A stretch of 41,125 nucleotides of DNA. Origin: Candidatus Geocrenenecus huangii (GTDB lineage: Archaea > Thermoproteota > Nitrososphaeria_A > Caldarchaeales > Wolframiiraptoraceae). Below the pieces are notes generated by a model that saw nothing but the letters and a program-made list of their open reading frames with translations, was not told the origin of the DNA and did no database searches. The first letter of the stretch is position 1, and every line of letters begins with the position of its first letter. Where the stretch lies: NCBI GenBank assembly GCA_023254095.1, contig JALNLM010000013.1, positions 1-41,125 of the forward strand, in the 5' to 3' direction. The translations under genes were made by a program, and so were the position numbers. Below are positions 4,326 to 41,077 of this stretch, one piece after another.

Positions 4326-4326
4326 T

Positions 4327-7198: not shown

Positions 7199-7377
7199 GT
7201 GTTCCTACCACCCTTCCTTAACCTGCTTAATCCATTCATCAACAAGTCAGAGTTTCTATGTCTAGCAAGCTTGGTGCTTCTTTTATGCTTAGTGGTCTCA
7301 TGAACATATTCGGGAATAAGTAACGATATGATAATCGTTAGCCCGGCGATAATCATTATAGTCAAGTTAAGATTCAT
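7195..7377 (-). CDS. Small hypothetical membrane protein
   Basis: 60 aa with an N-terminal TM helix; overlaps both neighbours in operon fashion. Confidence 0.6.
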   Translation of the reverse strand: MNLNLTIMIIAGLTIIISLLIPEYVHETTKHKRSTKLARHRNSDLLMNGLSRLRKGGRNT

Positions 7378-21122: not shown

Positions 21123-21704
21123 ATGTCGAGATACGAAAAGACGCCTGAACCATCGGTGGAGATACAGAATGTGGTGGCATCCGTAACGATTAACCAGAGA
21201 CTAGACCTGGCTCAGATCCAGAAGACGTTCCCAGACGTAGAGTATAAGCCGGCCCAGTTCCCGGGACTAGTCTTCAGATTGCAGAAGCCGAAGACGGCAA
21301 CACTCATCTTCTCATCGGGAAAGATGGTGTGCACGGGAGCAAAATCAGAGCAGGAATCAATAAAAGCAGTACAAACAGTAGTGAGACTGCTGAAGAAAGA
21401 AGGATTCCTAATAGCGCAGGAACCGCAAATCGAGATCCAGAACATAGTTGCATCAATCGACCTGCATGGAACCATCAACCTGGAGCAGGCAGCCAACAAG
21501 CTCGAGAACGTCATGTATGAACCAGAGCAGTTCCCCGGCTTGATATTTAGGATGTTTGAACCTAAAGTCGTTATCCTCATGTTCGCCAGCGGCAAGCTCG
21601 TGTGTACAGGTGCAAAAACAGAGAAGGAAGTTTACGATGCTGTCTATAAGTTGAAGAAGATACTTGAGGAGAATCAATTGATAGCCTACGTTACTTCGAG
21701 ATGA
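21123..21704 (+). CDS. tbp: TATA-box-binding protein
   Basis: Two TBP repeats: IQNVVAS...Y.P.QFPGLVFR...LIFSSGKMVCTGAK and IQNIVAS...YEPEQFPGLIFR...MFASGKLVCTGAK. Confidence 0.97.
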   Translation: MSRYEKTPEPSVEIQNVVASVTINQRLDLAQIQKTFPDVEYKPAQFPGLVFRLQKPKTATLIFSSGKMVCTGAKSEQESIKAVQTVVRLLKKEGFLIAQEPQIEIQNIVASIDLHGTINLEQAANKLENVMYEPEQFPGLIFRMFEPKVVILMFASGKLVCTGAKTEKEVYDAVYKLKKILEENQLIAYVTSR

Positions 21705-27592: not shown

Positions 27593-28243
27593 CTACTTTA
27601 ATTGTATTTTCAGTTCTACTTGCTGTCCTATCTCTGGAGCATTAAGACTATGTCTAGCTACAGTTACCGAAGATTCTAGCCTAGGGTCGTAGATGGAGAT
27701 CCATGGAACAAGATTGCTGAATTCCACGGCAAGTTTCGCAGATACCCATACAGGGGCCATAACGTATATTATCATAGGCTTTGAAGGATCTACTGCTCTT
27801 TTTATATCCCACCACCGTATCCTCTTTAACTCGGAGGGTTCTGCAAAAGCGCCTTCTAGAAGTTCAGCTCTAAGAAGCTGGATTGAGCCCAGCTTAATTA
27901 AGCCAACATCTATTCTCCCATCAGCACCAAGCTTAACCTCTTTAAGTAAGCCAGCCTCAATATCTACTCCGAGACCTACATCTTTTTCATTCACGGAAGA
28001 GATAACGATTCCCATATTTGCTCTCGGCTCATAGGTCGCCAATATACGTGCAAAATGGTAATGGTGAGCTAGAAATGCATAGAGCCATTGGGGGCCACGT
28101 CCACTGATTATTAAAGGCTTAGATGGATCCACCTCGACAAGCTGGACCCCTCTTAGATCGCTTGGCTCTAGAAGCCCACTTATAGTGAATTCTAGAATCT
28201 GGACTTTCCCAGTCTTCAGAGAGAACCTTATTTTTTCATTCAA
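27593..28243 (-). CDS. csx3: Tandem double-domain Csx3/Crn3 ring nuclease-like protein
   Basis: Domain 1 ISGRGPQWLYAFLAHHYH...YEPR; domain 2 ...APVWV...YDPRL...VARH; both contain EPS(D/E)L and VDPSKP.II. Close to the cmr operon. Confidence 0.88.
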   Translation of the reverse strand: MNEKIRFSLKTGKVQILEFTISGLLEPSDLRGVQLVEVDPSKPLIISGRGPQWLYAFLAHHYHFARILATYEPRANMGIVISSVNEKDVGLGVDIEAGLLKEVKLGADGRIDVGLIKLGSIQLLRAELLEGAFAEPSELKRIRWWDIKRAVDPSKPMIIYVMAPVWVSAKLAVEFSNLVPWISIYDPRLESSVTVARHSLNAPEIGQQVELKIQLK

Positions 28244-28308: not shown

Positions 28309-29442
28309 ATGATGATCTTCAACCTTAAGCCTGAATGGGTGGAGCCAAGCTTTAGCATATATTACCTCGATATAGTATACTCCTATCCAGCTATATTGGA
28401 GGTGGATTTTCTATCAATCTTTAAGGGAGCTCTCTTATCAGTCGAGGTAGAAAATGAACCAACAAATATCCCTAGAAAATCTTTAAAATATTTCGTGAAC
28501 GGTGTCTGTAGATATCCCGTAGTATATTTTAGTATTAACTCTTCTTCCGACAAAGACGAAACAGAAAGTGACACAAAATGGGTACGTGAAAGTGGTATTA
28601 CGATACCGACGTTAGTAGACTGCCAAACTATGAAAGAGCAGCTTAGAAATTTCTTGGAGAATAATAGATCCACCATCATTCAGAAGAAGAATGAAAGAAG
28701 TCAACTATTCACTATCGATAACTTCCTGTGTGCACTTCTAGTCTATAGTTCTCCCTTGATCTGTGATATCCTTCTAATGAAAAGTAGCATCCTAGAACAT
28801 GTCCTAAATTCTTTTGAAGTAGCTGGGTTTAGAGCCAGCTTAATAAAGAAAGCAAAACTTTTAGAAAAAAGAGATGATGGGTGGAGATCCAATAATGGAG
28901 GAACTTGTAATCCATCCATCGAGAATCAAGCTAAAGAGAAGTTTCAAAGTATAAGATCTATAATAATGATAATCCCAATAGTGAGAAGCATGTACTTTCA
29001 TACAGAGTTAAAAAGGTTTATAGAGGAAAAAGGTGACATAAAATGTCTATTTCCAAATCTAGAAAAACTAGTCTTCGTATACACTAAAGAGAGTTGTGAA
29101 GACGCAAAGACGATAATATCGGTAGTCATGGGAAAGAATAGAAACGACATCCAGACTGACAAAAGAGAAGTAAATAAAAATGAAATTGGTGAGATTGTTA
29201 AGAATCTTGCAGCATACGAGCTCCCTAAAGACGTATTGATATTAACTATTGGCGAAGTCCCGAAGAGTGAGCTCATAAAGTTTATAGATCCGATCTTAAA
29301 CACTAGGCTTGGAATATTATTATGGAGGCTTAATGTATACAAAGAGAAATTAGAAAAGTTTATTGAAGAAGCTTTGAATTGTAAAAAAGTTTCGGATGTC
29401 GGGGGCATCGAGAAGATTGAACTCCAATTGCTCGAGATATGA
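28309..29442 (+). CDS. Uncharacterised CRISPR-associated protein: putative N-terminal CHAT fragment + C-terminal CARF-like domain
   Basis: C-terminal region has CARF-like elements FPNLEKLVFVYTKES.E.AK.I and VLILTIGEVPKSE. N-terminal LDIVYSYPAILEVDFLSI...KYF....YPVVY resembles the CHAT N-terminal L.IVPDG.L..LPF.AL...YL....I.Y pattern. Confidence 0.55.
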   Translation: MMIFNLKPEWVEPSFSIYYLDIVYSYPAILEVDFLSIFKGALLSVEVENEPTNIPRKSLKYFVNGVCRYPVVYFSINSSSDKDETESDTKWVRESGITIPTLVDCQTMKEQLRNFLENNRSTIIQKKNERSQLFTIDNFLCALLVYSSPLICDILLMKSSILEHVLNSFEVAGFRASLIKKAKLLEKRDDGWRSNNGGTCNPSIENQAKEKFQSIRSIIMIIPIVRSMYFHTELKRFIEEKGDIKCLFPNLEKLVFVYTKESCEDAKTIISVVMGKNRNDIQTDKREVNKNEIGEIVKNLAAYELPKDVLILTIGEVPKSELIKFIDPILNTRLGILLWRLNVYKEKLEKFIEEALNCKKVSDVGGIEKIELQLLEI

Positions 29443-30769
29443 ATGTGATCTCTCCCCAAAGAAGATAGGTTTAAAATTAACCTCAAATAATCCTGAGTCA
29501 TCTAAGATAAAGTGTCAGGACCGTCTCATCCATGAACTTCTCAAATCAGATCCTGACCGAACCTGGATCTTCTTGTCAACTCATGGAATGTGGTTAGAAA
29601 AAGTTAAAGATAAAGAAGTAGGCTTGTTGATAGATTGCTTAACTGGGATTAGGAGGTTGGTCATTAATCATGAAAACTATGAATTAATCTTCGCTATCCT
29701 ATCTATACCTATGTTTGATATGCATGTCGAAGAGGTTTCATATACAAAGAATACAAAGGAAAAAGTAGAGAAGACTGAACAACAGTCGACTATTACCTCT
29801 AGAGGTATTCACAGCAAGGTTAGAAGAGGTGAGATACTCAACACGGATATCGCTAGTGGAAAGCCGCTGGAGGTTACACCTCTGACCTTTCATGCGGCGA
29901 CATGTGGGTATCATAGGCTTGGATATTCCCTTAGACTTGCTGCTCTTCAAAGTGCTCTTTCACGGGAGGTTGCATGTTTCTTTTTTGAAATAAAACCTCC
30001 CCATAAAACATACGCTAGTATGTATGGTCTGAGCTCAGAATCTGAAGCTGCTGGAGCATTAGCATCTTATACTTCAGCCTTAATTAGATATTACAGTGAG
30101 ATAAATCTTGAAGCAGTAGACGCTGAGATGACTACATCTATAATCAAGGTTAGAGGTGTTTGCAAAGAGAACATCGTTAAATCTTCAAGAAAACTACTAT
30201 ATTATATGTCAGAGAATCCCCACGGCATAGAAGCAAGATTTGATAAAGATTCTAGAGACCTCTTATTACGTCTCCCAGATGAAGAAGCAGATAGAGCTCT
30301 TCAAGATATTCAAAAAGAGTTAAAACCTTTTAGAAGATTGGTTTATGTGGAAAAGCTGAAGAAAAAATTTGAAGAGTGGCAGAAAGAAGATATTGAGAAT
30401 ATTCTCCTCGATTTTTCTGAGCAGATGAATACATGTGATTTATATCTACTCTCTCTACTCGTTAAAACCTATTTTCCTGAATCTAAACTAAATTCCACAT
30501 GGATAATATGCACCCCTCTAACATATCCGATGGCCTCTATAACATCCGCATACGCAACCTGGCTCTCGAATCTTGGTAAGATTAGAATCGTGATGTCGAG
30601 TGAAGATGTGTTGGTAGCTAAAACCTTAGCCGAGAGTATCTCCGAGGAGATAAAGAAGAGTAAAGTTCTCTACTTAGCAGCAGGTCCAACTTCCCATGTA
30701 CTTAGCTTTGGAAAGACTTTGAAAAGTAGGCTAGGAGATAATATGATTTGTGAAGCATTAACACCCTAA
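29396..30769 (+). CDS. Putative caspase-like (CHAT) protease catalytic domain + C-terminal CARF-like domain
   Basis: Motifs in CHAT order: WIFLSTHG (H63), GLLID, VRRGEIL, LTFHAATCG (C170), SLRLAALQSA, YASMYGL. C-terminal Rossmann-like STWIICTPLT and KVLYLAAGPT. Confidence 0.6.
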   Translation: MSGASRRLNSNCSRYECDLSPKKIGLKLTSNNPESSKIKCQDRLIHELLKSDPDRTWIFLSTHGMWLEKVKDKEVGLLIDCLTGIRRLVINHENYELIFAILSIPMFDMHVEEVSYTKNTKEKVEKTEQQSTITSRGIHSKVRRGEILNTDIASGKPLEVTPLTFHAATCGYHRLGYSLRLAALQSALSREVACFFFEIKPPHKTYASMYGLSSESEAAGALASYTSALIRYYSEINLEAVDAEMTTSIIKVRGVCKENIVKSSRKLLYYMSENPHGIEARFDKDSRDLLLRLPDEEADRALQDIQKELKPFRRLVYVEKLKKKFEEWQKEDIENILLDFSEQMNTCDLYLLSLLVKTYFPESKLNSTWIICTPLTYPMASITSAYATWLSNLGKIRIVMSSEDVLVAKTLAESISEEIKKSKVLYLAAGPTSHVLSFGKTLKSRLGDNMICEALTP

Positions 30770-30797: not shown

Positions 30798-31334
30798 TTA
30801 CGGATCAGCATCTAATACTCGTGTTTCAAGTGTTGCGACATCATTGATACGATTAACTTTGAAGAGAATAGAGATTACTTTACTTAGAACTTCTTTATCA
30901 GTATAGATTTGGAGCGGGTCTTTAATGCTAACTACGTACTCTTTATCATCTAATAAATCTAATAACCATAACTCACTATACGTAATCAAATCGAAGAGTA
31001 GTTCTTCCAATACTTTCTGAATCTTCTCTGCCGGTCGTACGATGGCAAATATGAATGTTGGTAGCTCGAAGGGGGAGCCTAGGTTACATATTATAGTGAT
31101 ATCATTGCAATCTTTAACCATTTCAACTAATCTTCTTTCATTGAAAAGTTTCATTACATTTTCCAAAAACTCATCTTCATTTTCCAGATCATGTATAAAG
31201 TGGATCTCGTGGGTACCACTACTGGACTTCCCAAAATATATAGAATTTGGTTCACTTAGTTCAGCCTTCGTTTTTAATTCTTCTAAAAGCTTTTCATGGA
31301 ATTTACAATTTATCTTTTCAGATAACCAGATCAA
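30798..31334 (-). CDS. Hypothetical protein, last gene of extended cmr operon
   Basis: 178-aa ORF starting 3 nt after the preceding stop; no recognised motif. Confidence 0.65.
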   Translation of the reverse strand: MIWLSEKINCKFHEKLLEELKTKAELSEPNSIYFGKSSSGTHEIHFIHDLENEDEFLENVMKLFNERRLVEMVKDCNDITIICNLGSPFELPTFIFAIVRPAEKIQKVLEELLFDLITYSELWLLDLLDDKEYVVSIKDPLQIYTDKEVLSKVISILFKVNRINDVATLETRVLDADP

Positions 31335-31337
31335 CTA

Positions 31338-32075
31338 TTAAGTCACCTCAATACGTGGAGAATTTACATCCACATAAAATACTATCTTAGGTCTACCCTC
31401 ATCATCTAAAAATTCAGAACTACATCTAATACTGTGCCTAATTTGCGCTAATTTATTATTTAATTTATACTCTAATTCTTCCGCCCACATTTTTATCTTT
31501 TTTCTTACCTCTTGAGGATTTTCTATCTCACTAATTTCTATAATTATATGGACGATACACTTTTTCTTTACTAGGTAATTGTAATCTCTGTCTAAGAGAT
31601 TTTTCTTTACTTTAGAGATAAGTTTTGATGATAAGAAACATTCTAATTTAGTAGCTATCTCATCAATATCATTTTTAATTATGTCCTCTACAGTTAGATG
31701 CTTCTTTGATTTAAACTTTTTGCATTCTACTCCTATTAAGACCTCGTCGTTACTGTCATGTTTTAACAGGACTATTCTGTCAACCAGTTTAATGCTGTCT
31801 TTATTAGTTTTGTTTTCACTGGCTATCTCTTTTATAAGGTTTGAAAACTTTGGAACCCCGACGGAGGACAAATCTACAAAGACTAGTTCTTTCAACCGAA
31901 GTCCAGAGTTTTCTACGTACTTATTTACAACTTTTAGATAACAAGCACATTCATCAATTAATTTATCAATTTTCTTATTTTTACAATTTAGATGATCACT
32001 CTCAAGTTTTTGAACCCATTCACGTACAAGTCTTTTATCCCATTCTATGCAATCCGCCATGTAATCACCAGGCAT
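31338..32075 (-). CDS. Putative PD-(D/E)XK nuclease-fold protein
   Basis: KE...VDRIVLL...VLIGVECKKF motif; TAATG coupling to the upstream ATPase. Confidence 0.6.
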   Translation of the reverse strand: MPGDYMADCIEWDKRLVREWVQKLESDHLNCKNKKIDKLIDECACYLKVVNKYVENSGLRLKELVFVDLSSVGVPKFSNLIKEIASENKTNKDSIKLVDRIVLLKHDSNDEVLIGVECKKFKSKKHLTVEDIIKNDIDEIATKLECFLSSKLISKVKKNLLDRDYNYLVKKKCIVHIIIEISEIENPQEVRKKIKMWAEELEYKLNNKLAQIRHSIRCSSEFLDDEGRPKIVFYVDVNSPRIEVT

Positions 32076-33295
32076 TATAAGATATTTTTCACTAGATCTA
32101 TATCAATCATTGATCTGAGTGTGGTTCTAGCATCAGGGGTTAAGATAAGTCTCCCTTCATTACCAAACTTAAGATTAATTATCTCAACTTTTCCATCCTC
32201 TTTATAGATATAATAGAAGTTGATGTCTTTTGGATTCACTTCTCTTTTTATAATTTTGGATCTGAATGCATGGAGCGGTATTGGGCTATGAGTGGATAAA
32301 ATCAGAATAGAATTTTTCCCTTCAAGCTCTTTTAACATAGAACTTAACAGCTTGTTAAAGTTTATAACATGTATTCCTATCTCAGGTTCTTCTATTATAA
32401 GAGCCTGATTGTTTTCTACGATAATTGACCCCAAGAGAAGTAGAATTGTATTGCGCTCACCACAGCTTAGAACTCTAATATCTTTTCCATCGATTCTTAT
32501 GGAAGAGTCTTCAAAGGTTTCCTGAAGATCCACTTCAATAGATGGTTGCTTACTAATAATCTCTAGACTCCTCAGACAGCCTTCCAGCTCAGTTAATACC
32601 TTTTCCTCCCTCACTCTTTGTACTACTAAGTTGAACAATAAATCTAGTAGATTCTCTCCCATTGACGATAGCCTTGATGAAGTAATAGATCTAAACTCTC
32701 CAAATTTTATTTCACTTGGAGCAGTTCTATGGTGGGAGATGTAAATGAAGTCAGACTTTAATAAACCCTCAAGATACTTTTTTATGTTTGGTTGTTTTTC
32801 TGCATTTTCAATAACATCTTTAATAAACTTCTTCTCTTCTCTTCCATATCTATCTTCTATAAATCTCTTACCCTCTAGAACTATTTCCCTGATTTCTTTA
32901 GTTATTTCACTTATTTTATCAACAGTTAAATCGTTTATCTCTGCTATCGGGACTTCTCTACCAGTACTTGATAACTTGGCTTGAAAAAGTTGGCTATCTT
33001 TATTGTATGTGATCGTGAATAGGTAATCTAAGTCTTGTACTCCTATTGACATATATTTTTCAGATAGATTTACTAAATCGTTAAACCTGATTCCTTGGAG
33101 GTGTTTAAGAGAGCTACTGGATATCTTATCTCCCTCAAGCTTTAACCTTCCATTCAATATATCGATGAATATTGCGAGTGATTCAAGTATAGAGCTTTTC
33201 CCAGCACCCATCGGTCCCCAGAGAACGTTAACCTTGTTTATATCCATCTTGACTTCTTCTTTAAGGCATTTGTAACCTTTTACAGTTAAAATCAT
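32075..33295 (-). CDS. ABC-type (AAA_15/AAA_21, AbiEii/OLD-like) ATPase
   Basis: KGYKCL, Walker A WGPMGAGKSS, signature LSCGER, Walker B IIEEPEIGIH, H-loop STHSP; no TM segments. Confidence 0.9.
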   Translation of the reverse strand: MILTVKGYKCLKEEVKMDINKVNVLWGPMGAGKSSILESLAIFIDILNGRLKLEGDKISSSSLKHLQGIRFNDLVNLSEKYMSIGVQDLDYLFTITYNKDSQLFQAKLSSTGREVPIAEINDLTVDKISEITKEIREIVLEGKRFIEDRYGREEKKFIKDVIENAEKQPNIKKYLEGLLKSDFIYISHHRTAPSEIKFGEFRSITSSRLSSMGENLLDLLFNLVVQRVREEKVLTELEGCLRSLEIISKQPSIEVDLQETFEDSSIRIDGKDIRVLSCGERNTILLLLGSIIVENNQALIIEEPEIGIHVINFNKLLSSMLKELEGKNSILILSTHSPIPLHAFRSKIIKREVNPKDINFYYIYKEDGKVEIINLKFGNEGRLILTPDARTTLRSMIDIDLVKNIL

Positions 33296-33300
33296 CTGTC

Positions 33301-34377
33301 CTAATACCCCCTATAGTGGGGTATTGCGGTTGAGAGAAGCTTCAGATACCATTCACCGACATTGTGTAATGTCTTCTCATTCTTGATCTTCAAGAGTGAC
33401 CCTGGAATCAGTGCTGGAACATGCTTCTTAAATCTCTTCTCTCTGATAAGCCATCCCCCGATCAATTCTATTTTCCCCAAGACCCATTCAACTTCTCCGA
33501 GTCCCAAAGCGTAAATCTTTCCATCGGCTTTACTTAAGGCAATATGTGAAACTGCTAAGAGCGTCTTCTCAGCTTTAGGTTCATGCTTAAGTTGGAAGGC
33601 CTTTACCAATGGAACGTCACCCTTCTTAACAGTAGCTTTAGCAACTCCTCCCTCACCTCCAAACCTTAACTTCACGTCTCCAAATCCTCTGACATCTATT
33701 TTCCTGAAGAGATCTCCAGGCAATCTGACGTCGCATCCAAAAGCTATCTTGGATGCTATCCCGTACCTATTGCTGTCAAGAGTATAAGATTCTATCATAC
33801 TTCTTAAGTAGAGCGTCCCATGCTGAACTACTTTCTTATCTCTATTCATCTCAAAACTAGTTCTCTCACTTGCTACTTCTTTAAGGACTGCAATTGAATC
33901 AGGATTAACGTTCCACCCGAGCTCAGCATCTTTGAATTCTATTTCAGCAAGTAGGAGCCCTTCGGGTTTAGCACCCCTCCTACCAAATCTAGTTATCCTC
34001 GGGAGAGGTAATCCGTCGCTTCTTTCATACATTAGTTTAGGCTTTTTCTCTCCAGCCTCTCCAAATTCTAGGATTATTCCATGAACTTTATCGAACGGGG
34101 CTGGGACAAAATACCTGAAGTTTCCTTCGAATTGGGCTACCAAATAAGGTCCCCTGACCTGTATATCCTCTCTTTCGACAAGCTCTTCGATATCTTGAAA
34201 TGTGAGTTGACAGATCTCACTGATTACTCTTAGAGAGGCGCCTCCCAAAGCATAAGATGAGGGGAAGATTGCGCTTTTAACATACTCAGAGGGTGACAAT
34301 TCTTGTCGCGGTCCGAAGAATATCGGCGTCAAGGGCTCAAAATGTATAGATAGATACGCCTCACCCATAAAGCTCAC
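33301..34377 (-). CDS. cmr3: Type III-B CRISPR module protein Cmr3
   Basis: FEPLTPIFFG, FPS, VRGPY, GTLY, RFGGEGG, IGGW, ALIPGS; follows cas10. Confidence 0.88.
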   Translation of the reverse strand: MSFMGEAYLSIHFEPLTPIFFGPRQELSPSEYVKSAIFPSSYALGGASLRVISEICQLTFQDIEELVEREDIQVRGPYLVAQFEGNFRYFVPAPFDKVHGIILEFGEAGEKKPKLMYERSDGLPLPRITRFGRRGAKPEGLLLAEIEFKDAELGWNVNPDSIAVLKEVASERTSFEMNRDKKVVQHGTLYLRSMIESYTLDSNRYGIASKIAFGCDVRLPGDLFRKIDVRGFGDVKLRFGGEGGVAKATVKKGDVPLVKAFQLKHEPKAEKTLLAVSHIALSKADGKIYALGLGEVEWVLGKIELIGGWLIREKRFKKHVPALIPGSLLKIKNEKTLHNVGEWYLKLLSTAIPHYRGY

Positions 34378-37300
34378 CTAATGCGATTGGGCTGGATTCT
34401 CTTATTGCACCAACCTGGCATAAAGCTGCTTTAAGCAGCTCGGCGAGAAGGTTAGTCTGCCCTCTCGGTGTTAAGAATTTTCTATCAAAAAATTGTTCAA
34501 GCTCACGTATCAAACCTTCATCTACACCCCCCCTCACAGCTTTAGACCTGAAGAGCTTTAGGTCTTCATACTCTTCTAAACGCTCAAATCTTAAAATCTT
34601 CTCACTAAAGCCGTCAACGAACTTGTATCCACCATCTCCCGCTACAAGTCCCTTGTTCTGGCTCTGCAATACAGCTGAAAAAGCTAGAAGTGTTAGAAGT
34701 TCAACTAGCTTATCAACCTCTATAAGTTTGAACTGGATGTAAGCTTTAGAGCCGCCTACCCTATAGGAGATGACTAGAGAATCTTTTTTCCCAGCTATAG
34801 ATTCTACCTTTTTTGCCTCCTCAACTAGTACACTGACTTCTTCTACTGTTTTCCTTAATGGGAAGAATGCGTCGAAGAATATTATTCCAAAGCTCTGTGA
34901 GGCTTTAGAACCCAAACCAGGGATCAGGTACTTAACGTTATCCAGTACACGATCTTCTAGTTCTATAAATGTTCTTGAGAATTCTTTCCTTAACCTGCCA
35001 ATTATCATCAATGCATTCTCTGGTGGAAGCATCGCTAGTATGTCATCGCCGCCTGAGTATATGAGCAATCCACCATTCTCTTGAATATGCTTAGAAGATT
35101 GTATTGAGTTAACGTTGAGTGCTCTGCTGACAGTATATGTATAACTAATTCCAGGCAACCAGGGTAGTTTGCTTATACTCCTACTTATATCCTTAAGCTT
35201 CTTAACCTCTTCCTTATCCAAATTCTTATCGCTAAGCCCTGTGAAGAACTCTAATAATCTTCTTGGAATGATTTCAAAGATCTCTCTCTCATATGCTCCA
35301 CGGCCTGACAATATATCTGACATGGAGTCTCCATCCCCTTTCACCATTGCGAGATAGTCGGAACACCATTTGACGATCGCGCGGACGGAGCCTTTCTTCA
35401 TCTCCTTAAGGAGATTGATTAGTACAGAGGAATTCCATACTTGAAGTCTCTCTCTTAAATTCTTAATGCTTTTATCTAGATACTCTTTCAAATCCTTTAT
35501 GTTGGCTAAAACATCCTGAGCTGATCTAAACTGAGCTGATGAAGATGGAATTCTTAGGTAATGTTCTTCATAAAGCGACGGGAGAAACATTTTAAAAGCT
35601 TGAAAAGCATTCTCAAAGTCTTCGTATTCGTCAATACGACAAATTGGCAATTCTCCGAAAAGTGCATTATATTTCTTTATAATAAGATTACACCCTTTCC
35701 AGAATATTTCTTTAGCGGTTTCATTCTTGACGAGTGGTGAAGTCGTAATCGCTGCTAAGGTAGAGGCAAACGCTGAGCCGGCTATCTCTTCCGTCGATGG
35801 ATAATGTTTACGTTTTTCTATGCTTTTTCCTCTACGTTTATTAACTAGTTCCATTAAAACATCGTCGACCACCGAGTATAAGCTTCTCTTAACAAGACAG
35901 TGTAGACATAACCTTTCTCCATCTTTTATCCAGATACCTTCTTTATGAAATTTTTTAATCGTCTCATATAAATCTTCTAACAAATTCTTATTATCTCTAA
36001 CCTCATCCGCCTTAATTGCTTCTATAATGGGCTCTCGCCTCCAACACATGTTACAGAGCCGTCTACGTTCTCGCACATCTACCCATTTAAGATCTGTGAC
36101 CGACTTAGTAATTGAATAAGTGTAGTGGAAGGATGTTAAGGCTTTTACAAAGACCCCCCACTCATAAAGAGAGAATTCTTCAGACTCAGGGTCCCCCTCC
36201 TTCTCTGACATAGCCTCTGAAGACTTCTTCTCCGATATCTTTTGTAGTTTTTCTAGAACCCCTCTTAGGTATACTGCTTGCTCTACTTCTTTATGTTCTA
36301 TAAGATTTCTAGCTCCAAGCTCTCTAAGTAGGTTAAGTCTCTCAACTTTATTCCAAGGTATCCGAATATATGCTATATTTACGTTATATGGCATCTCTTC
36401 AGCATTTTCCTCCCATATATCCATATCTCCATACACTTTCACGTAATTGGATCCTTGGATTTTTTCCTTTACGTCACTTAATTTTCTCATAACTATACTC
36501 GCTACTTTCTTCCAGGCTTCCCGATACCAGTCTGAGATATTTGAAGAGAAGTGATTAACCTTGCTGCCTGGAAGGATTACCATTACCGCTCCGGGTATGA
36601 CTGGTAATGTGAGCTCATCATCTTCAATAGATACATTAATGTTTTTTGATGCTAAGTAGGCATCGTATAAGGGGGTAGCGTGCAGTAGAGGTCGTATGAT
36701 AGAACAAGGACCTAGTTCATCGGCTAATTTTACTAGAACGTAGAATGTGAGTATAGAGATGAGATAACTTCCAGACCAAAGATCTCTTGGAAGCTTTGAA
36801 ATAGATATGAATTCTTGCTTATTCTCGACCTCCCAGTAAAGTAAGCCTATTTCAGTTTCTCCTTCTAACCATGATGTGAGCAGTGACGATGTTGCGTAGA
36901 GATGGTCGAATATCGTCGAGCTTGGAGATCGTGTATCGGCTGGAAGCAATGTAGCCCATGAAGCATCAAGGCCGAATGCTTCTCTCAAGGAGCATACGAA
37001 TGAGGCTGGTAAGACTCTCCAGAGAGCATGATACTCATAACCTTTCTCAGCCTTAATCATCACTTTTGAGATTAGTTCGATGAATTTTTCAACAGCCTTC
37101 TTGAACTCCTCTCTCCTTAAATGTCCACTTTCATCGTAGAGAAGTCTTCTTACCTCTCTCGTAAGGTCATGTTCTGAAAGATCTCCAGGATGCTTGAAGA
37201 TGATCTTATTAACAAATGTTCCACCTTCCTCTTTAGAAGGAGAGAAGACGTATGTGATGGAGCGGTCGATAGAACTTGATGCAACATCACATTTTTTAAT

Positions 37301-37588
37301 AATAGGTCTTCCAATATTTTTAACTGAATATATTTTCGCCGCTAAATCATCTTTACCCTCCTCCTGCAATTTCTTTGCAACCTCCTCAATTATGTACAGA
37401 GCGAGTCTTTCGTGAATATCTACAGCCCCCTCCTCCTCGTATCTCTTCATTCTATCTCTACCGATTACGTATTCTAGTAGTTCATATACATCGCTACCCT
37501 TCTCAGCTGAGAAGAGCAATGGTTTGAAAGGCGGGTCATGTAATAGAGCAATGATCTTCAGCGCAGAGAGATCAAGTGAAATACTCAT
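34361..37588 (-). CDS. cas10: Type III-B Cas10/Cmr2 with HD nuclease motif and intact cyclase Palm
   Basis: LLHDPPFK, LPADTR.P...IFDH, QEFIS.S...RDLWSGSY, Zn ligands CNMC/CLHC, GDGD.M, YSGGDD. Confidence 0.95.
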   Translation of the reverse strand: MSISLDLSALKIIALLHDPPFKPLLFSAEKGSDVYELLEYVIGRDRMKRYEEEGAVDIHERLALYIIEEVAKKLQEEGKDDLAAKIYSVKNIGRPIIKKCDVASSSIDRSITYVFSPSKEEGGTFVNKIIFKHPGDLSEHDLTREVRRLLYDESGHLRREEFKKAVEKFIELISKVMIKAEKGYEYHALWRVLPASFVCSLREAFGLDASWATLLPADTRSPSSTIFDHLYATSSLLTSWLEGETEIGLLYWEVENKQEFISISKLPRDLWSGSYLISILTFYVLVKLADELGPCSIIRPLLHATPLYDAYLASKNINVSIEDDELTLPVIPGAVMVILPGSKVNHFSSNISDWYREAWKKVASIVMRKLSDVKEKIQGSNYVKVYGDMDIWEENAEEMPYNVNIAYIRIPWNKVERLNLLRELGARNLIEHKEVEQAVYLRGVLEKLQKISEKKSSEAMSEKEGDPESEEFSLYEWGVFVKALTSFHYTYSITKSVTDLKWVDVRERRRLCNMCWRREPIIEAIKADEVRDNKNLLEDLYETIKKFHKEGIWIKDGERLCLHCLVKRSLYSVVDDVLMELVNKRRGKSIEKRKHYPSTEEIAGSAFASTLAAITTSPLVKNETAKEIFWKGCNLIIKKYNALFGELPICRIDEYEDFENAFQAFKMFLPSLYEEHYLRIPSSSAQFRSAQDVLANIKDLKEYLDKSIKNLRERLQVWNSSVLINLLKEMKKGSVRAIVKWCSDYLAMVKGDGDSMSDILSGRGAYEREIFEIIPRRLLEFFTGLSDKNLDKEEVKKLKDISRSISKLPWLPGISYTYTVSRALNVNSIQSSKHIQENGGLLIYSGGDDILAMLPPENALMIIGRLRKEFSRTFIELEDRVLDNVKYLIPGLGSKASQSFGIIFFDAFFPLRKTVEEVSVLVEEAKKVESIAGKKDSLVISYRVGGSKAYIQFKLIEVDKLVELLTLLAFSAVLQSQNKGLVAGDGGYKFVDGFSEKILRFERLEEYEDLKLFRSKAVRGGVDEGLIRELEQFFDRKFLTPRGQTNLLAELLKAALCQVGAIRESSPIALGELYG

Positions 37589-38373
37589 CTACCCACCTCC
37601 AACTCTCCATATCCTAGCATCGTTTTTGCGCCAACACCCTCCCATATCACAGTCTTGACGTAACCTTTCATTTTATCGAAATACTTAACCGCCTCTTTCT
37701 TTGCAGCGACAAAGAAGGTAAACTCTACACCTCTTGCAACGGCCGGATAGATTATCGGCGTAGGTTTTGCTTTATGTTCTTTAATACTCTCTTGATATAT
37801 TGATGTAGTGACTTCTGGTTCAAGTATTCTTCCCTTTTCCCCTTCTTTACTTGGATACCCGTCTGTGAAGACTACCGATGAAGCTTGTCCTAAATTCCCG
37901 AGAAGTTCATCTATTGAGTTTAAAGACAGCTCGCTTGGAGGGATGCTCTCAAGATAACTTCTAACTACACCTTTCAAACTTGATGCTGGAATATATGGAA
38001 TGCCGAAAATTGGATGAAGTATTGTTCCATATTCGAAGAGTAAAGCAGAAGTATCATTTCTAGAATGAATTATAAGACGGGATACTGCGCGTGCTTTAAC
38101 CCTGAAGACGGCTCCGCCTAACCTCTGCTCATAGTGTTGCTTAAGTCCCTCCTCCAATGAATCTAGGAATCTATTTATGAAAAAAGATGACTGAGAATAC
38201 TTTTCATTCACTATTTCAATAAGCTTCTTTAAAAGCTCTCTTTTAACATCTTTAGCTTTAATTAACTTGAATACGCCCAGTCTACATAATGTTACAGGGT
38301 CTTTACAATATTTATCTAATAACTCATTAAATTCATCGAGTTTATAACCGAATATGTTTATAGAATCTACCAA
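37585..38373 (-). CDS. cmr6: Type III-B RAMP protein Cmr6
   Basis: HPIFGIPYIPASSLKGVVR, VFTDGYP, P.PI.YP, GVGAKT..GYG. Confidence 0.93.
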   Translation of the reverse strand: MVDSINIFGYKLDEFNELLDKYCKDPVTLCRLGVFKLIKAKDVKRELLKKLIEIVNEKYSQSSFFINRFLDSLEEGLKQHYEQRLGGAVFRVKARAVSRLIIHSRNDTSALLFEYGTILHPIFGIPYIPASSLKGVVRSYLESIPPSELSLNSIDELLGNLGQASSVVFTDGYPSKEGEKGRILEPEVTTSIYQESIKEHKAKPTPIIYPAVARGVEFTFFVAAKKEAVKYFDKMKGYVKTVIWEGVGAKTMLGYGELEVGR

Positions 38374-39503
38374 ATTCTCACCTCTTGAACATTGTATCCT
38401 TTTTTCCGCATATACCCCAAGAACATTGATTCAAGAGATTTATACGCTGAGTCTAGCTTTTCTTTAATATTTATTATATTAAGTTTCCTATCTCTCCCTC
38501 TCCATTCTATATTATCTGGCCAGTCACTAGATTTAAAAAGGCAGGCTGTGGCAAAATCTCTATGTACACTGAATATCAGAGGAGATGCTCTACGTTGAAT
38601 CTCTCCAGAGATGTATCCTGTACCTTTAACTTGACGTGGGAGACCGAGGATCCATGCTATAAGTTTAAGTCTAAATGGATCTTCACCATTTTCAGGAATA
38701 ACCATTCTTCTTTTCGTTCGTAATGTAAATTCTTGGAGGTCTGTCAAAACTCTTCCAACCTCCTTGCCCTCAAAAGGAATATACCATAGCTTAAAGAAGT
38801 CTGGTGCAACTGATGGTATCGGTGGATAATTCTTAATCTCCACCTGTTTCTTTACAGGTAATGCTTCATTTAGTATGTCTCTTAAGGCATCTGGGAAGAT
38901 CCATCTCTTCAAGCTTTCTGGAAGCCCCACTCTATCTTCAACGATCTTAAAATCTATGCATCCTAGACCTCTTCTACTACCCTTCCCAATTCCGGATAGT
39001 AGAAGCCCAGAGACAAGACTTAAAATAGCGATTCTAACATTTTCATCTTTTACTGTTCTTCTTTCTTCTTGGAATGAGAATAAGTATACACTTAGGGAGC
39101 CTCTAATCGATTCTATATAGTTAAGTATATTCCCTCCAAGTGTTAATAGACTTACTCTAGGAGGTATTCCTGATTGCTTAGGCTTTATCTGTCTGTATAT
39201 GGGAGGCTTATCTCTTGTAAATCTTAATGCTAGCCTCGATGATTGAGATCCTCTTCTTCCTGCGAATCCTAACACCATGCCTACTTCGTCTTTTACTTTT
39301 GTTTCGATATCCGTGTAGCCTTGTAATAGATGTCTTCCAGAAAGGATTGCTCTAAACCACCATCTCCATAAACCTTTAATGCTCTGAGTCCTCAATTCTT
39401 CTTCATGAAATTCTGAGTATGCTTGTGTATCATATCCGCCGATGAGTAAAGGCGTAGAGTTTTCTACGTTCAACTTAAGTACCTCATATATCAAATTGGA
39501 CAC
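38367..39503 (-). CDS. cmr1: Type III-B RAMP protein Cmr1
   Basis: TPLLIGGY, LRTQSIKGLWRWWFRA, GIGKGSRRGLG, LGLPR, RRASPL. Confidence 0.93.
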   Translation of the reverse strand: MSNLIYEVLKLNVENSTPLLIGGYDTQAYSEFHEEELRTQSIKGLWRWWFRAILSGRHLLQGYTDIETKVKDEVGMVLGFAGRRGSQSSRLALRFTRDKPPIYRQIKPKQSGIPPRVSLLTLGGNILNYIESIRGSLSVYLFSFQEERRTVKDENVRIAILSLVSGLLLSGIGKGSRRGLGCIDFKIVEDRVGLPESLKRWIFPDALRDILNEALPVKKQVEIKNYPPIPSVAPDFFKLWYIPFEGKEVGRVLTDLQEFTLRTKRRMVIPENGEDPFRLKLIAWILGLPRQVKGTGYISGEIQRRASPLIFSVHRDFATACLFKSSDWPDNIEWRGRDRKLNIINIKEKLDSAYKSLESMFLGYMRKKGYNVQEVRIW

Positions 39504-39959
39504 CTATTGCACTTTTGTAATTAGCGCTTCTGCAAATTTCTTCAACCATCCAGCAAACCTTAAGGCCTGGTCTTCTATAACCATTAAGTTCTCAGGACTT
39601 GAAGTAAGACTTTCGATGAGTTTTCCTAGTGAGGCATCATTCTTGGATAGATTGATCTTCTCAAATAGGATGCAAAACGAAGCACCATATATGGCATATC
39701 CAGCATCTTCTCTACCTTCTGGAGGCATTTTAGAAAGCCCTGTCAACCATCTGAAAGCATTCTTCACTAAAACTTCTTCCGCTTTAGCGTAGATGTAGGA
39801 GATTGTTGATAGTATGCCTGCCTTAAACAAGTAGCTATAGAGTTCTCTACATCTACTCCTAACAGATTCTTTAACATCATCTGAGCACTCTTCACTAACT
39901 TTTTCTATTATTTTATAAGCTTCTTTTGCTAGTTCCGTAGATGTAAGAATTTTCACCAT
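39504..39959 (-). CDS. cmr5: Type III-B small subunit Cmr5 (Cas11)
   Basis: Small helical protein between cmr4 and cmr1 with C-terminal WLKKFAEA. The ATG at 39959 overlaps the cmr4 stop (TAATG). Confidence 0.88.
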   Translation of the reverse strand: MVKILTSTELAKEAYKIIEKVSEECSDDVKESVRSRCRELYSYLFKAGILSTISYIYAKAEEVLVKNAFRWLTGLSKMPPEGREDAGYAIYGASFCILFEKINLSKNDASLGKLIESLTSSPENLMVIEDQALRFAGWLKKFAEALITKVQ

Positions 39960-40906
39960 TACCACCCACAGAATCTTACAACACCTTTACCTATTGTTTC
40001 ATGTCCTCCTAAAACTACGTAGAAATCTCTTTCATTTACAGACTTAAGGCCCTCCAACAGTTCTTTGAATAATGTTTCTGCATTTTTGCTTTCTATGCCT
40101 TCTCCACCTTTAGGCTCCGACATCATTATGGCCGTCGTAAACATCGTGGATTCCGGAACGTATTCTTCATCCCATAAAGCTCCGCTTACAACTGTCTTCT
40201 TACGATAATCTAATCTCACTCTTGTGATCGAGAATGTAGAACGGCTTAATATTTGCAGGCCGTACTTATCTGGAAGTATTACGACGCGGTCAGTTATCAT
40301 TTCGGATGCAACGGGTATAACTACATTTTTTAAGATTTTTTCGAATGACGTTCTCACCAAGTCTGTTTTAGTGGAATCGCAGTCGAAGACCTTATCAACT
40401 ACCCATATCTTATTGTCTAAAACTAATTCATTATTACTTACTAATGCTTTATCATTTTGATATGAAGCTTCCATTAGCTCACTAAGTGTTTGAACATAGT
40501 CTGATTTTCCTGATAATTCAAAAAGTGTTTTTGTCCTCTCTAATAGTAGATTGGTGGTGATGTATATGAAGCCGAATTTCAAAGAAATAGTTGGAGTTAA
40601 GAATAATCGGGCATCAAGTATATTTAACGCTCCTGCATGCTCATGAGCTCTTTCTCTTTCAGGACCGAAGATCAATCTTTCGACATCTTCTTTGTTAGCA
40701 CCGCTTCTATATGCTGTTCTTAATGCCCCCTTAATGCTACTACCCCATATGCACGGTATTCCCCAGCTATCCCTTTGAATAGGTAGATCGACATGCTCTT
40801 CGAATCCTTTACCACTACCTGCGTGAACCGGCGTTAAAGCATATATTAAATATGGTCTAACTACATGGTAAACGGGTGCAAGAGACATATAACGTGCCTG
40901 AGACAT
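39959..40906 (-). CDS. cmr4: Type III-B RAMP protein Cmr4 (target RNA nuclease)
   Basis: TPVHAGSG, VDLPIQRD, GSSIKGALR, DARL, LW.EEYVP, LGGHETIGKG. Confidence 0.96.
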   Translation of the reverse strand: MSQARYMSLAPVYHVVRPYLIYALTPVHAGSGKGFEEHVDLPIQRDSWGIPCIWGSSIKGALRTAYRSGANKEDVERLIFGPERERAHEHAGALNILDARLFLTPTISLKFGFIYITTNLLLERTKTLFELSGKSDYVQTLSELMEASYQNDKALVSNNELVLDNKIWVVDKVFDCDSTKTDLVRTSFEKILKNVVIPVASEMITDRVVILPDKYGLQILSRSTFSITRVRLDYRKKTVVSGALWDEEYVPESTMFTTAIMMSEPKGGEGIESKNAETLFKELLEGLKSVNERDFYVVLGGHETIGKGVVRFCGW

Positions 40907-41077
40907 GCAATATCTAATGTTGTATTCTCTAGATATAAATTTTATAGAAGCATATATTATATATTTTAAGACTCATATATTGTCTAGGATTTATAAAGTA
41001 AAGAAGCTAAGTCAATAATACATAAGTAAAATGTCTGACGTAATGCTATCAACGAAGTTTTATTTATCTGTTTATTA

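What the first reader, a model, noticed from the sequence alone, without database searches (positions are those of the whole stretch)
29396..30769. Candidate CARF-controlled caspase-like (CHAT) protease effector of an archaeal type III-B CRISPR system
Seen: a 457-aa unannotated ORF lying between csx3 and the extended cmr operon. It carries, in the right order, WIFLSTHG (His63, codon 29582), GLLID, VRRGEIL, LTFHAATCG (Cys170, codon 29903), SLRLAALQSA and YASMYGL...AAGAL. These track the CHAT consensus H.ATHG / L.L.D / L...EI / LVVLSAC / L..AFL.AGA / VASLW.V. The last ~125 aa look like a CARF-type Rossmann fold. Established: type III Cas10 makes cyclic oligoadenylates sensed by CARF/SAVED domains, and the CRISPR proteases I know of are SAVED-CHAT, SAVED-Lon (CalpL) and TPR-CHAT (Csx29), all characterised in bacteria. 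Inference: this is a cOA-activated CHAT-CARF protease in an archaeon, an architecture I do not recognise as characterised. The ~60-residue insertion between the His and Cys motifs and the atypical AATC register leave real uncertainty.
Basis: partly seen in the sequence, partly recalled or inferred. Interest (0 to 1): 0.92.

Follow-up and report, generated by a model that had tools for sequence, protein, structure and literature searches.

The report
Orphan CRISPR type III accessory gene pair
The ORF is a real, conserved gene, not a caspase-like protease, that is predicted to pair with the gene just upstream and always travels with a Csx3 signal-degrading enzyme beside type III CRISPR genes, so it looks like an undescribed CRISPR helper module.

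Summary
The CHAT-CARF protease reading fails. Cys170 is Cys in only 4 of 20 relatives and no Cys column is conserved. None of 20 members hits CHAT or a CARF family in Pfam. Profile comparison with archaeal CHAT domains gives 0.1% probability. Comparison with two CARF families gives nothing, although those two families detect each other at E 7e-5.

What is there is a small orphan family from hot-spring archaea. A homologue of the 377-aa upstream ORF precedes it in 22 of 22 informative metagenome loci. A tandem-domain Csx3 ring nuclease accompanies it in 19 of 19 informative loci. Type III Cmr or Csm genes lie beside it in 18 of 25 loci.

The two orphan proteins are predicted to form a complex: score 0.90, best control 0.00. 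The partner's N-terminus weakly resembles a NERD, PD-(D/E)xK-type nuclease (E 3.8e-4).

Best reading (about 0.4): a heterodimeric, cA4-pathway ancillary effector of type III CRISPR, reset by its own Csx3.

The parts
29396..30769 (+). The finding's ORF: 457-aa orphan protein (P0001), second gene of the pair
   Evidence: ORF and translation. 12 relatives among 5.8 bn clusters and 14 among 1.84 bn representatives. No Pfam, NCBIfam or PADLOC family. 35 residues are invariant in the 17 core relatives.
29579..29593 (+).
   Evidence: H63 is conserved in 17 of 20. Residues 62-68 lie in the predicted interface with the partner protein, with the lowest-error contacts to partner residues 142-151.
29903..29905 (+).
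   Evidence: Cys in only 4 of 20 relatives; the column reads CCSSCILQMSSSSVCMSTST.
30395..30766 (+). C-terminal region (residues 334-457) with alternating hydrophobic stretches and conserved loops DFSEQM, TPLTYP, SSED and AGPTxH
   Evidence: Alignments A1 and A2. No similarity to CARF or to OLD-type Toprim. The TPLTYP, SSED and GPTxH loops are in the predicted interface.
28309..29442 (+). Partner gene: 377-aa orphan protein with an N-terminal NERD-like PD-(D/E)xK motif (residues about 12-60, nt 28342-28488). It overlaps the finding's ORF by 47 nt.
   Evidence: Directly upstream on the same strand in 22 of 25 related loci; the other 3 loci start inside the P0001 homologue. Alignment A3. Pfam NERD weak hit in 5 of 18 members, best E 0.083. 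hhalign of residues 1-110 against 15 archaeal NERD domains: probability 36%, E 3.8e-4, aligning EID and vELk with NERD iD and viE-Kn.
28702..28815 (+). Partner residues 132-169 (conserved FxxDNFLCxLLxYxSP helix region), the main predicted contact surface for P0001
   Evidence: Invariant F134, N138 and Y146. Interface list and lowest-error pairs.
27593..28243 (-). Single-chain tandem Csx3 (Crn3) ring nuclease, 216 aa, divergently transcribed from the pair
   Evidence: PF09620 E 5e-28 with 2 stretches; TIGR02579 above cut-off. Aligns to A. fulgidus Csx3 structures at E 7e-14. All 14 module-linked homologues aligned are two-domain. Present in 19 of 25 loci; the other 6 lack the flank.
33301..40906 (-). 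Type III-B operon: cmr4 (39959-40906), cmr5 (39504-39965), cmr1 (38367-39503), cmr6 (37585-38373), cas10/cmr2 (34361-37588), cmr3 (33301-34377). This is the presumed source of the signal.
   Evidence: NCBIfam and Pfam hits. Cas10 carries an N-terminal HD motif and an intact GGDD cyclase motif.
30798..33295 (-). Neighbouring accessory genes between the pair and cmr3: a 406-aa AAA_15/AAA_21 ATPase (32075-33295), a 245-aa ORF (31338-32075) and a 178-aa ORF (30798-31334). Probably a separate module.
   Evidence: Pfam and PADLOC hits for the ATPase; none for the small ORFs. The set matches the description of Cas_RecF plus associated small proteins in PMC6546367 (passages read). It is absent from L003, L016, L021 and L022, which still carry the pair.

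Best explanation
The ORF encodes one subunit of a two-protein accessory complex of type III CRISPR-Cas. It is not a protease.

Shown here:
- It is a real, conserved protein of a very small orphan family from hot-spring archaea.
- It is always the second gene of an overlapping pair.
- The pair always travels with a single-chain tandem Csx3 ring nuclease.
- The trio sits next to, or in the same operon as, Cmr-type or Csm-type type III genes.
- A structure-prediction model places the two orphan proteins in one complex, and the family's most conserved loops (THGMW, TPLTYP, SSED, GPTxH) form the contact surface.

Inferred:
- On target-RNA recognition the cyclase-competent Cas10 makes cyclic tetra-adenylate (cA4).
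- cA4 switches on the heterodimer.
- The catalytic part is the partner's N-terminal NERD-like PD-(D/E)xK nuclease domain.
- The finding's protein is the regulatory, sensor or scaffold subunit. It holds a second cluster of invariant polar residues outside the interface: H139, Q185, T246, T247, R314, E342, Q343 and D348.
- The dedicated Csx3 then degrades cA4 and resets the system.

Which of the three proteins actually binds cA4 is open.
For: Real gene and small family. 12 relatives at 33-75% identity; 14 among 1.84 bn representatives. Conservation extends from about residue 23 to the C-terminus.

Synteny in 25 metagenome loci:
- Partner directly upstream on the same strand in 22 of 25; the other 3 loci begin inside the gene.
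- csx3 in 19 of 25; the other 6 lack the flank.
- Type III genes in 18 of 25, both Cmr-type (such as L003, L006, L021) and Csm-type, where the order is csm3-csm4-csm5-cas10-partner-P0001 (L009, L012-15, L019, L020).

Complex prediction: ipSAE 0.90 in 3 of 3 runs, best of 3 controls 0.00. That mark was reached by 58 of 80 solved complexes and 2 of 110 mismatched pairs; the counts hold only roughly because my own alignments were used. The runs share at least 87% of contacts and the partner pLDDT is 80-81. 14 of the 35 invariant residues fall among the 55 interface residues (hypergeometric p 9e-6), and 6 of 15 in the partner (p 0.009). This is not independent of the model, which used the alignments.

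Nuclease lead: hhalign of partner residues 1-110 against NERD gave E 3.8e-4. It was the only one of 42 domain comparisons below 0.019. Pfam NERD hit 5 of 18 members.

Signal pathway:
- Cas10 has GGDD.
- Csx3/Crn3 is a cA4-specific ring nuclease (PMC7371418, passages read).
- Ring nucleases were found only with cA4 effectors, and 31 loci had a ring nuclease but no known effector (PMC12409355, passages read).
- No match in the 96%-complete own genome to Csx1_HEPN, Cas_APE2256, Card1, cas_MJ1666, cas_TM1812 or CHAT, nor any known effector family in the window.
Against: - No cOA-sensing domain (CARF, SAVED or other) could be detected in either orphan protein, so cOA control is inferred from neighbours only.
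- The NERD similarity is weak: probability 36%, 9% for the whole-protein profile. The Lys of the ExK motif is present in only 11 of 18 partners and is Glu in the window's own protein.
- In the model, the conserved loops at the edge of the C-terminal region contact the partner rather than lying free for a ligand.
- The most distant locus, L025, has no cas gene in the 7.5 kb upstream. The three most distant proteins lack H63.
- Cas10 also has an HD motif, so immunity need not depend on a cOA effector.
- The SAVED probe of the own genome was uninformative, because nothing rang in the control genomes either.
- The genome is a 32-contig assembly, so an effector could be missing from it.
- The complex is a model, not a measurement.
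Confidence: 0.4

Rival explanations
1. One reading: a cOA-activated CHAT (caspase-like) cysteine protease with a C-terminal CARF sensor, using His63 and Cys170.
For: The motif strings exist in the stated order. His63 is conserved in 17 of 20. The gene is linked to type III loci.
Against: Cys170 is Cys in 4 of 20, and no conserved Cys exists anywhere. 0 of 20 members hit CHAT in Pfam at E<=1. hhalign against 6 archaeal CHAT domains that show the canonical HFxGHG and NACxS motifs gave probability 0.07-0.14%. There is no similarity to two CARF families, with a positive control at E 7e-5. The His63 loop is predicted to be a protein-protein contact.
Confidence: 0.02
2. The tandem Csx3 is the cA4 sensor, as proposed for Csx3-AAA fusions, and the two orphan proteins are its output module or helpers of signal turnover. 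The finding's protein would then neither bind cOA nor be regulated by it directly.
For: Csx3 co-occurs strictly (19 of 19 informative loci). All 14 module Csx3 proteins are two-domain, with complementary loss of residues in the two halves, which suggests a specialised and possibly slow or non-cleaving site. No sensor domain is detectable in the pair. Csx3 fused to an ATPase has been read as a sensor domain (PMC6546367, passage read).
Against: The N-terminal Csx3 domain keeps the SGRG, His-x-x-His and E-P-R residues that match the A. fulgidus Csx3 catalytic positions, which fits an active ring nuclease.
Confidence: 0.2
3. The pair are extra structural or assembly subunits of the type III ribonucleoprotein (Cmr7-like), not signal-dependent effectors.
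For: In 7 loci the pair directly follows cas10 in the same operon, and in L016 and L021 it directly follows cmr3.
Against: The same pair serves both Cmr and Csm gene sets, whose subunits are not interchangeable. In the window and in 5 related loci (L001-L005) it is on the opposite strand from the cmr genes. Strict linkage to a ring nuclease is typical of the signalling branch (PMC12409355). Complete Cmr1-6 sets are present without needing it.
Confidence: 0.1
4. An independent nuclease-type defence or toxin module that merely shares defence islands with type III CRISPR.
For: The distant locus L025 shows the pair with no cas gene in 7.5 kb. The window is a defence island with a large methyltransferase and an ATPase module. 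The pair is patchily distributed: only the own genome among 401 and 241 genomes of the phylum searched.
Against: Type III genes are adjacent in 18 of 25 loci, and most of the other 7 are short contigs (1.2-4.9 kb) apart from L025. The pair is co-operonic with cas10 in 7 loci. csx3 is always present where the flank exists. No viral copies were found.
Confidence: 0.1

Closest known systems
Can2/Card1 (CARF plus PD-(D/E)xK nuclease, cA4-activated type III ancillary effectors; properties recalled from the literature, not tested here)
   Same: Type III accessory context; a cA4 pathway implied by a ring nuclease; and, if the weak NERD signal is right, a restriction-endonuclease-fold nuclease as the output.
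   Different: Can2/Card1 is one polypeptide that works as a homodimer, with an N-terminal CARF domain. Here there are two unrelated orphan proteins predicted to form a heterodimer, no detectable CARF, and the nuclease-like motif sits at the N-terminus of the partner. Card1_endonuc (PF09002) gives no match in the genome.
CRISPR-linked proteases: SAVED-CHAT, CalpL (SAVED-Lon) with CalpT/CalpS, and TPR-CHAT Csx29
   Same: Type III-linked effectors with more than one protein.
   Different: No conserved Cys or Ser nucleophile motif was found, there is no CHAT profile similarity, and no SAVED match was found. The SAVED probe was uninformative.
Csx3/Crn3 ring nuclease and Csx3-AAA fusions (PMC7371418, PMC6546367, PMC12409355; passages read)
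   Same: The module's third gene is a Csx3. As in the fusions, the Csx3 is physically tied to proteins of unknown role.
   Different: Here Csx3 is a single-chain tandem of two Csx3 domains. It is linked to two orphan genes by gene order, not fused to an ATPase.
Cas_RecF ATPase with its small associated proteins (clusters 17, 83, 84 and 108 of Shah et al. 2018, PMC6546367; passages read)
   Same: Accessory genes of type III loci in thermophilic archaea with no database matches. A set of this kind lies right beside the pair in the window and in 14 of the 25 related loci.
   Different: Different proteins, sizes and families. The pair also occurs without this set (L003, L016, L021, L022).
NERD domain proteins (Pfam PF08378)
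   Same: The partner's motif (acidic residue, then D at a strand start, then E-x-K) aligns with the NERD core.
   Different: Below Pfam's threshold in every member (best E 0.083). The Lys is missing in 7 of 18. The rest of the partner and all of the finding's protein have no NERD counterpart.

Membership tests
CHAT / caspase-like cysteine protease (PF12770) | Conserved His-Cys catalytic dyad | tested here: not met
   C170 is Cys in 4 of 20, and no conserved Cys column exists. In 6 archaeal CHAT domains the H and C are invariant.
CHAT / caspase-like cysteine protease (PF12770) | Sequence or profile similarity to the family | tested here: not met
   0 of 20 members in Pfam at E<=1. hhalign probability 0.07-0.14%, E 0.4-0.67. 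No CHAT match in the own genome, while the control genome rang.
CHAT / caspase-like cysteine protease (PF12770) | Caspase-hemoglobinase fold | not testable with these tools
The Atlas model has pLDDT 0.42 and gave no usable match.
CARF domain (C-terminal residues 330-457) | Sequence or profile similarity to CARF families | tested here: not met
   No Pfam, NCBIfam or PADLOC hit. hhalign against Cas_APE2256 (24 sequences) and Csx1/cas_MJ1666 (20 sequences) gave E>=0.12. Positive control between those two families: probability 63%, E 7e-5. Only two CARF families were tried.
CARF domain (C-terminal residues 330-457) | Rossmann-like fold that dimerises and binds cOA across the dimer axis | not testable with these tools
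   No structure model could be made. The alternation of hydrophobic stretches and conserved loops fits an alpha/beta domain but does not show one.
Type III CRISPR accessory (csx-type) gene | Conserved adjacency to type III cas genes, across subtypes | tested here: met
   Type III genes in 18 of 25 loci, both Cmr-type and Csm-type; in the same operon after cas10 in 7 loci.
Cyclic-oligoadenylate-dependent effector | Binds a Cas10 product and is activated by it | not testable with these tools
   Supported only by context: GGDD in Cas10, an obligatory Csx3, and no known effector found in the genome.
NERD / PD-(D/E)xK nuclease (partner protein, residues 1-110) | D...(D/E)xK core on the strand pattern of the fold, and family similarity | tested here: inconclusive
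   hhalign E 3.8e-4, probability 36%, aligning the core motifs. The whole-protein profile gives E 0.0037, probability 9%. Pfam NERD in 5 of 18, best E 0.083, below threshold. ExK in 11 of 18; ExE in the window's protein.
Toprim (OLD-type) for the C-terminal region | Profile similarity, with a conserved E after strand 1 and DxD after strand 3 | tested here: not met
   hhalign against 17 archaeal OLD-like Toprim domains gave E 0.034-0.18, out of register with the E342 and E403-D404 idea.
Csx3 / Crn3 (neighbour gene 27593-28243) | Family model above threshold, with ring-nuclease residues | tested here: met
   TIGR02579 93 bits (cut-off 55); PF09620 E 5e-28. The alignment to A. fulgidus Csx3 keeps SGRG, both His of HxxH and the Arg, with Glu for Asp69. 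Activity was not tested.

The most novel reading that the evidence does not exclude
The pair is a new kind of type III second-messenger receptor. It would be an obligate heterodimer of two orphan proteins, with neither a CARF nor a SAVED fold, that senses cA4 (or another Cas10 product) and fires a NERD-like nuclease. A dedicated single-chain, asymmetric Csx3 would set its duration. That would add a third sensor architecture and the first obligate two-gene sensor-nuclease to CRISPR signalling.
Probability: 0.22. Interest if true: 0.85.

Novelty: new variant of a known kind. Interest (0 to 1): 0.66.

Why it matters
Type III CRISPR systems hand defence over to ancillary effectors, and new effector families keep changing what is known about how cells use cyclic-nucleotide signals. 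A survey of ring nucleases found 31 loci that have a ring nuclease but no recognisable effector (PMC12409355, passage read). This module is a concrete example of such a locus, and it offers a candidate.

The candidate is two conserved proteins with no detectable relatives among described families. They are predicted with high model confidence to form one complex, and they always come with their own unusual tandem Csx3.

If the pair is the cA4-responsive effector, it would show that cOA sensing is not confined to CARF and SAVED domains. It would also give a thermostable, signal-gated nuclease for study. If it is not, the strict three-gene linkage still marks an unexplored function in type III immunity of hot-spring archaea.

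For the scan itself, the case shows that short motif matches to a catalytic dyad are unreliable until conservation has been checked.

Tried and rejected
Structure route.
- The ESM Atlas holds both orphan proteins, but with poor models (pLDDT 0.42 and 0.38). All neighbours have TM<=0.35 by query and mixed folds, so I rejected them as uninformative.

Sequence and profile searches.
- PDB sequence search with the family profiles found nothing meaningful. The best hits were a KH domain at E 1.2 and a Mur ligase domain at E 0.024 over a low-complexity-like stretch.
- An internal duplication in P0001 (TPLTF against TPLTYP) is not supported: hhalign of the N and C halves gave E 0.16.
- Homology between P0001 and its partner: none (E 0.47; domain-wise E>=0.17).
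- Partner C-terminal region against Cas_APE2256: E 0.019, probability 2.4%. The alignment was unconvincing and I rejected it.
- Toprim idea: rejected.
- HEPN R-x4-H idea at R174-H179: rejected, because position 179 is L, I, V, H, Y, F, Q or A.
- Fused long forms: none found, which is weak evidence.
- A profile search for more members gave no new ones.

Distribution.
- No relatives in genome contigs.
- Among genomes of the phylum, only the own genome matched.
- No relatives in viral contigs.

Other checks.
- The sigma-70 promoter and terminator scan is not applicable to an archaeon and was at shuffle level.
- No CRISPR array in the window. One CRISPR-like array lies elsewhere in the genome, at contig C12:1-781.
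- Sequencing runs: no RNA holder was listed. The DNA holders are hot-spring metagenomes, and I laid no reads.

Papers.
- I saw the search listings.
- I read passages or sections of PMC6546367, PMC7371418, PMC11229360, PMC10910872, PMC12409355 and PMC12669027.
- None describes this pair. My statement that it is not in print rests on those four searches and those passages only.
- Supplementary tables, which were closed, may list it under a cluster number. This applies to Shah 2018 and its online catalogue. It also applies to two works I did not read: the CARF classification cited in PMC12409355, and the gene-neighbourhood survey that I recall as Shmakov 2018.


Full report
THE OBSERVATION

The ORF is real. 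An ATG-started open frame runs 29396..30769 on the + strand and encodes 457 aa. His63 (codon 29582), Cys170 (codon 29903) and all the quoted strings are present in the stated order.

The surroundings are broadly as described. A Csx3 gene lies at 27593..28243 (-). A complete type III-B set lies on the - strand from 40906 to 33301: cmr4, cmr5, cmr1, cmr6, cas10/cmr2, cmr3. The organism is an archaeon, since a TBP gene sits at 21123..21704. The first 22 kb of the window are housekeeping genes.

Two things were missed. A 377-aa ORF (28309..29442, +) lies between csx3 and the finding and overlaps it by 47 nt. Three further ORFs separate the finding from cmr3: 178 aa, 245 aa and a 406-aa AAA_15/AAA_21 ATPase. 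Near-identical public records call the protein 'hypothetical protein [Nitrososphaerota archaeon]'. One of them is a 393-aa form, which by its length would start at Met65. Homologues are conserved from about residue 23 onward, so the long start is the better one.

THE CHAT-CARF READING FAILS

The family is tiny. There are 12 proteins among 5.8 bn clusters and 14 among 1.84 bn representatives.

In the 20-sequence alignment A2 the Cys170 column reads CCSSCILQMSSSSVCMSTST. That is Cys in 4 of 20, and no column anywhere has a conserved Cys. His63 is kept in 17 of 20.

Independent tests agree:
- None of 20 members hits CHAT, or anything consistent, in Pfam at E<=1.
- NCBIfam and PADLOC give nothing.
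- I built an alignment of 6 CHAT domains from archaea of the same phylum. It shows the invariant His and Cys of HFxGHG and NACxS. The family profiles do not match it: probability 0.07-0.14%.

For the C-terminal 'CARF' I built alignments of two CARF families from the same phylum: Cas_APE2256 with 24 sequences and Csx1/cas_MJ1666 with 20 sequences. These two find each other at probability 63%, E 7e-5. The orphan family's own profiles (A1, A2 and their domain pieces) give E>=0.12 against either. The region 334-457 does alternate hydrophobic stretches with conserved loops (DFSEQM, TPLTYP, SSED, AGPTxH), which fits some alpha/beta domain. That is pattern reading, not a test.

WHAT IS ACTUALLY THERE: A CONSERVED THREE-GENE MODULE

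A metagenome scan returned 25 loci. I compared them with the window's proteins.

- Partner gene. A homologue of the 377-aa upstream ORF sits directly upstream on the same strand, mostly overlapping, in 22 of 25 loci. The other three loci begin inside the gene.
- Csx3. A homologue is adjacent in 19 of 25 loci. Two of these (L010, L011) show only its C-terminal end before the contig stops. The remaining six have no flank left.
- Type III genes. They lie in 18 of 25 loci. Most of the other seven are short contigs (1.2-4.9 kb). The exception is L025, the most distant member, which has no cas gene in 7.5 kb upstream.

The pair serves two kinds of system. One is Cmr-type, as in the window. The other is Csm-type, with the order csm3-csm4-csm5-cas10-partner-P0001 in L009, L012-15, L019 and L020. 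That is the behaviour of a transferable type III accessory module.

The module is rare. I found no relatives in 185,579 species genomes by pattern scan. Among genomes of the phylum only the own genome matched, 1 of 401 for P0001 and 1 of 241 for the partner. I found none in viral contigs.

THE TWO ORPHAN PROTEINS ARE PREDICTED TO BIND

The complex job gave ipSAE 0.90 in all three runs, against 0.00 for the best of three controls. The partner pLDDT was 80-81 and the runs shared at least 87% of their contacts. In the tool's calibration that mark was reached by 58 of 80 solved complexes and 2 of 110 mismatched pairs. Those counts hold only roughly here, because my own alignments were used.

The interface is made of the family's most conserved pieces:
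- In P0001: residues 62-68 (THGMW), 104-107, 174-175, 372-377 (TPLTYP), 398-407 (SSED), 428-437 (GPTxH) and the C-terminus.
- In the partner: residues 132-169 (the DNFLC...Y.SP region), 313-338 (GExPK) and the C-terminus.

14 of the 35 invariant residues of P0001 lie among the 55 interface residues (p 9e-6). In the partner it is 6 of 15 (p 0.009). This enrichment is not independent evidence, because the model saw the alignments.

A second set of invariant polar residues lies outside the named interface and is unexplained: H139, Q185, T246, T247, R314, E342, Q343 and D348.

THE PARTNER'S NUCLEASE-LIKE MOTIF

The partner's N-terminus carries conserved E12, D21, E31, D33, E46-x-K/E48 and K60.
- Pfam NERD hits 5 of 18 members weakly, best E 0.083.
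- hhalign of residues 1-110 against 15 archaeal NERD domains gives probability 36%, E 3.8e-4, and aligns EID and vELk with the NERD core.
- It was the only one of 42 domain comparisons with E below 0.019.

This is a lead, not a membership. The Lys is missing in 7 of 18 partners, including the window's own protein.

THE SIGNALLING CONTEXT

- Cas10 has an HD motif and an intact GGDD motif.
- The module's Csx3 aligns to A. fulgidus Csx3 structures.
- All 14 homologues aligned are single-chain tandems. The first domain keeps SGRG, H-x-x-H and E-P-R. The second keeps D-P-R and a His at the H80-like position, but lacks the His pair and SGRG. These residues are compared with H57, H60, D69, R71 and H80 in PMC7371418.
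- Csx3/Crn3 cleaves cA4 (PMC7371418).
- In a survey, ring nucleases occurred only with cA4 effectors, and 31 loci had a ring nuclease without a known effector (PMC12409355).
- The own genome (96% complete, 32 contigs) gave no match to Csx1_HEPN, Cas_APE2256, Card1, cas_MJ1666, cas_TM1812 or CHAT. The SAVED probe was uninformative.
- A CRISPR-like array exists on another contig.

MOST LIKELY MECHANISM (confidence about 0.4)

Cas10 makes cA4 on target recognition. cA4 activates the heterodimer, whose output is the partner's NERD-like nuclease. P0001 is the regulatory, sensor or scaffold subunit. The dedicated Csx3 clears cA4.

Shown here: the gene, its conservation, the synteny, the absence of CHAT and CARF signals, and the predicted complex.

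Inferred: cA4 dependence, nuclease activity, and the role of each subunit.

Against this reading:
- No sensor domain is detectable in either orphan protein.
- The NERD signal is weak.
- The conserved loops of P0001 face the partner in the model.
- L025 lacks cas genes.
- The HD motif in Cas10 could make an effector dispensable.
- There are no expression data.

Rivals:
- Csx3 is the sensor and the pair is its output (0.2).
- The pair are extra subunits of the ribonucleoprotein (0.1).
- The pair is an unrelated defence module (0.1).
- The CHAT-CARF protease (0.02).

COMPARISON WITH WHAT IS KNOWN, AND NOVELTY

The module works most like Can2/Card1-type cA4-activated nucleases with a separate ring nuclease. 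It is not a member of that or any described family that I could test.

The neighbouring ATPase with two small ORFs matches the Cas_RecF-plus-associated-proteins set of Shah et al. 2018 (PMC6546367). It appears to be a separate module, because four loci carry the pair without it.

Four literature searches and the passages read show no description of this pair. Supplementary tables were closed and may list it under a cluster number.

I rate it a new variant of a known kind: a type III ancillary module built from new protein families, with an obligate predicted heterodimer and a tandem Csx3. Interest is 0.66.

Noticed in passing
window 27593-28243 (-); also L003, L004, L006, L012-14, L017-22, L024: The module's Csx3 is a single-chain tandem of two Csx3 domains with complementary degeneration. 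It is conserved in all 14 homologues aligned. Domain 1 keeps SGRG, HxxH and E-P-R. Domain 2 keeps D-P-R and an H80-like His but lacks SGRG and the His pair. It looks like a built-in asymmetric dimer of a ring nuclease that normally works as stacked symmetric dimers.
   Followed up: partly
window 30798-33295 (-): An AAA_15/AAA_21 (RecF/SMC-like, best PADLOC hit NsnB) ATPase is followed by two small ORFs (245 and 178 aa) with no family. The set matches the uncharacterised 'Cas_RecF plus associated proteins' accessory set described for crenarchaeal type III loci (PMC6546367). Similar sets occur in L004-L015, L019 and L020.
   Followed up: partly
window 23488-26439 (-): A 983-aa protein with N6_Mtase, Eco57I and MmeI-type methyltransferase domains and weak BREX PglX-like hits. 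It marks the start of the defence island next to the CRISPR module.
   Followed up: no
window 29396-29590: One public record of the same protein is a 393-aa form, which by its length would start at Met65. That start would remove the conserved KIGLKLT and WIFLSTHG segments, so it is probably a mis-called start.
   Followed up: partly
L003:4226-5228, L010:2344-3428, L011:3809-4892, L023:304-1066: In four metagenome loci the partner gene is split or shortened (232, 205+151, 233+151 and 203 aa) while the P0001 homologue stays intact. These could be frameshifts, assembly errors or decay of the partner.
   Followed up: no
window 40934-40981: Two tandem copies of an AT-rich 23-24-nt unit containing TATAAA-like boxes lie just upstream of cmr4, the first gene of the cmr operon. 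This is a possible promoter or regulatory element at the contig end.
   Followed up: no
window 2760-8628 (-): A MoxR-type AAA_3 ATPase (6245-7198) is followed on the - strand by three ORFs with no family (404, 236 and 521 aa) and preceded by a DUF4129 protein and a 263-aa ORF. The operon is uncharacterised. A PIN-ATPase-KH protein lies at 706-2523.
   Followed up: no
L025:1-9665: The most distant copy of the pair sits among unknown proteins of 436, 173, 677 and 504 aa and an HTH protein, with no cas gene in view. The family may have a life outside CRISPR loci.
   Followed up: partly
own genome, contig C12:1-781: A CRISPR-like array with at least 13 repeat copies is cut by the contig start. It was the only array that my simple k-mer script found in the 32-contig assembly.
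   Followed up: no
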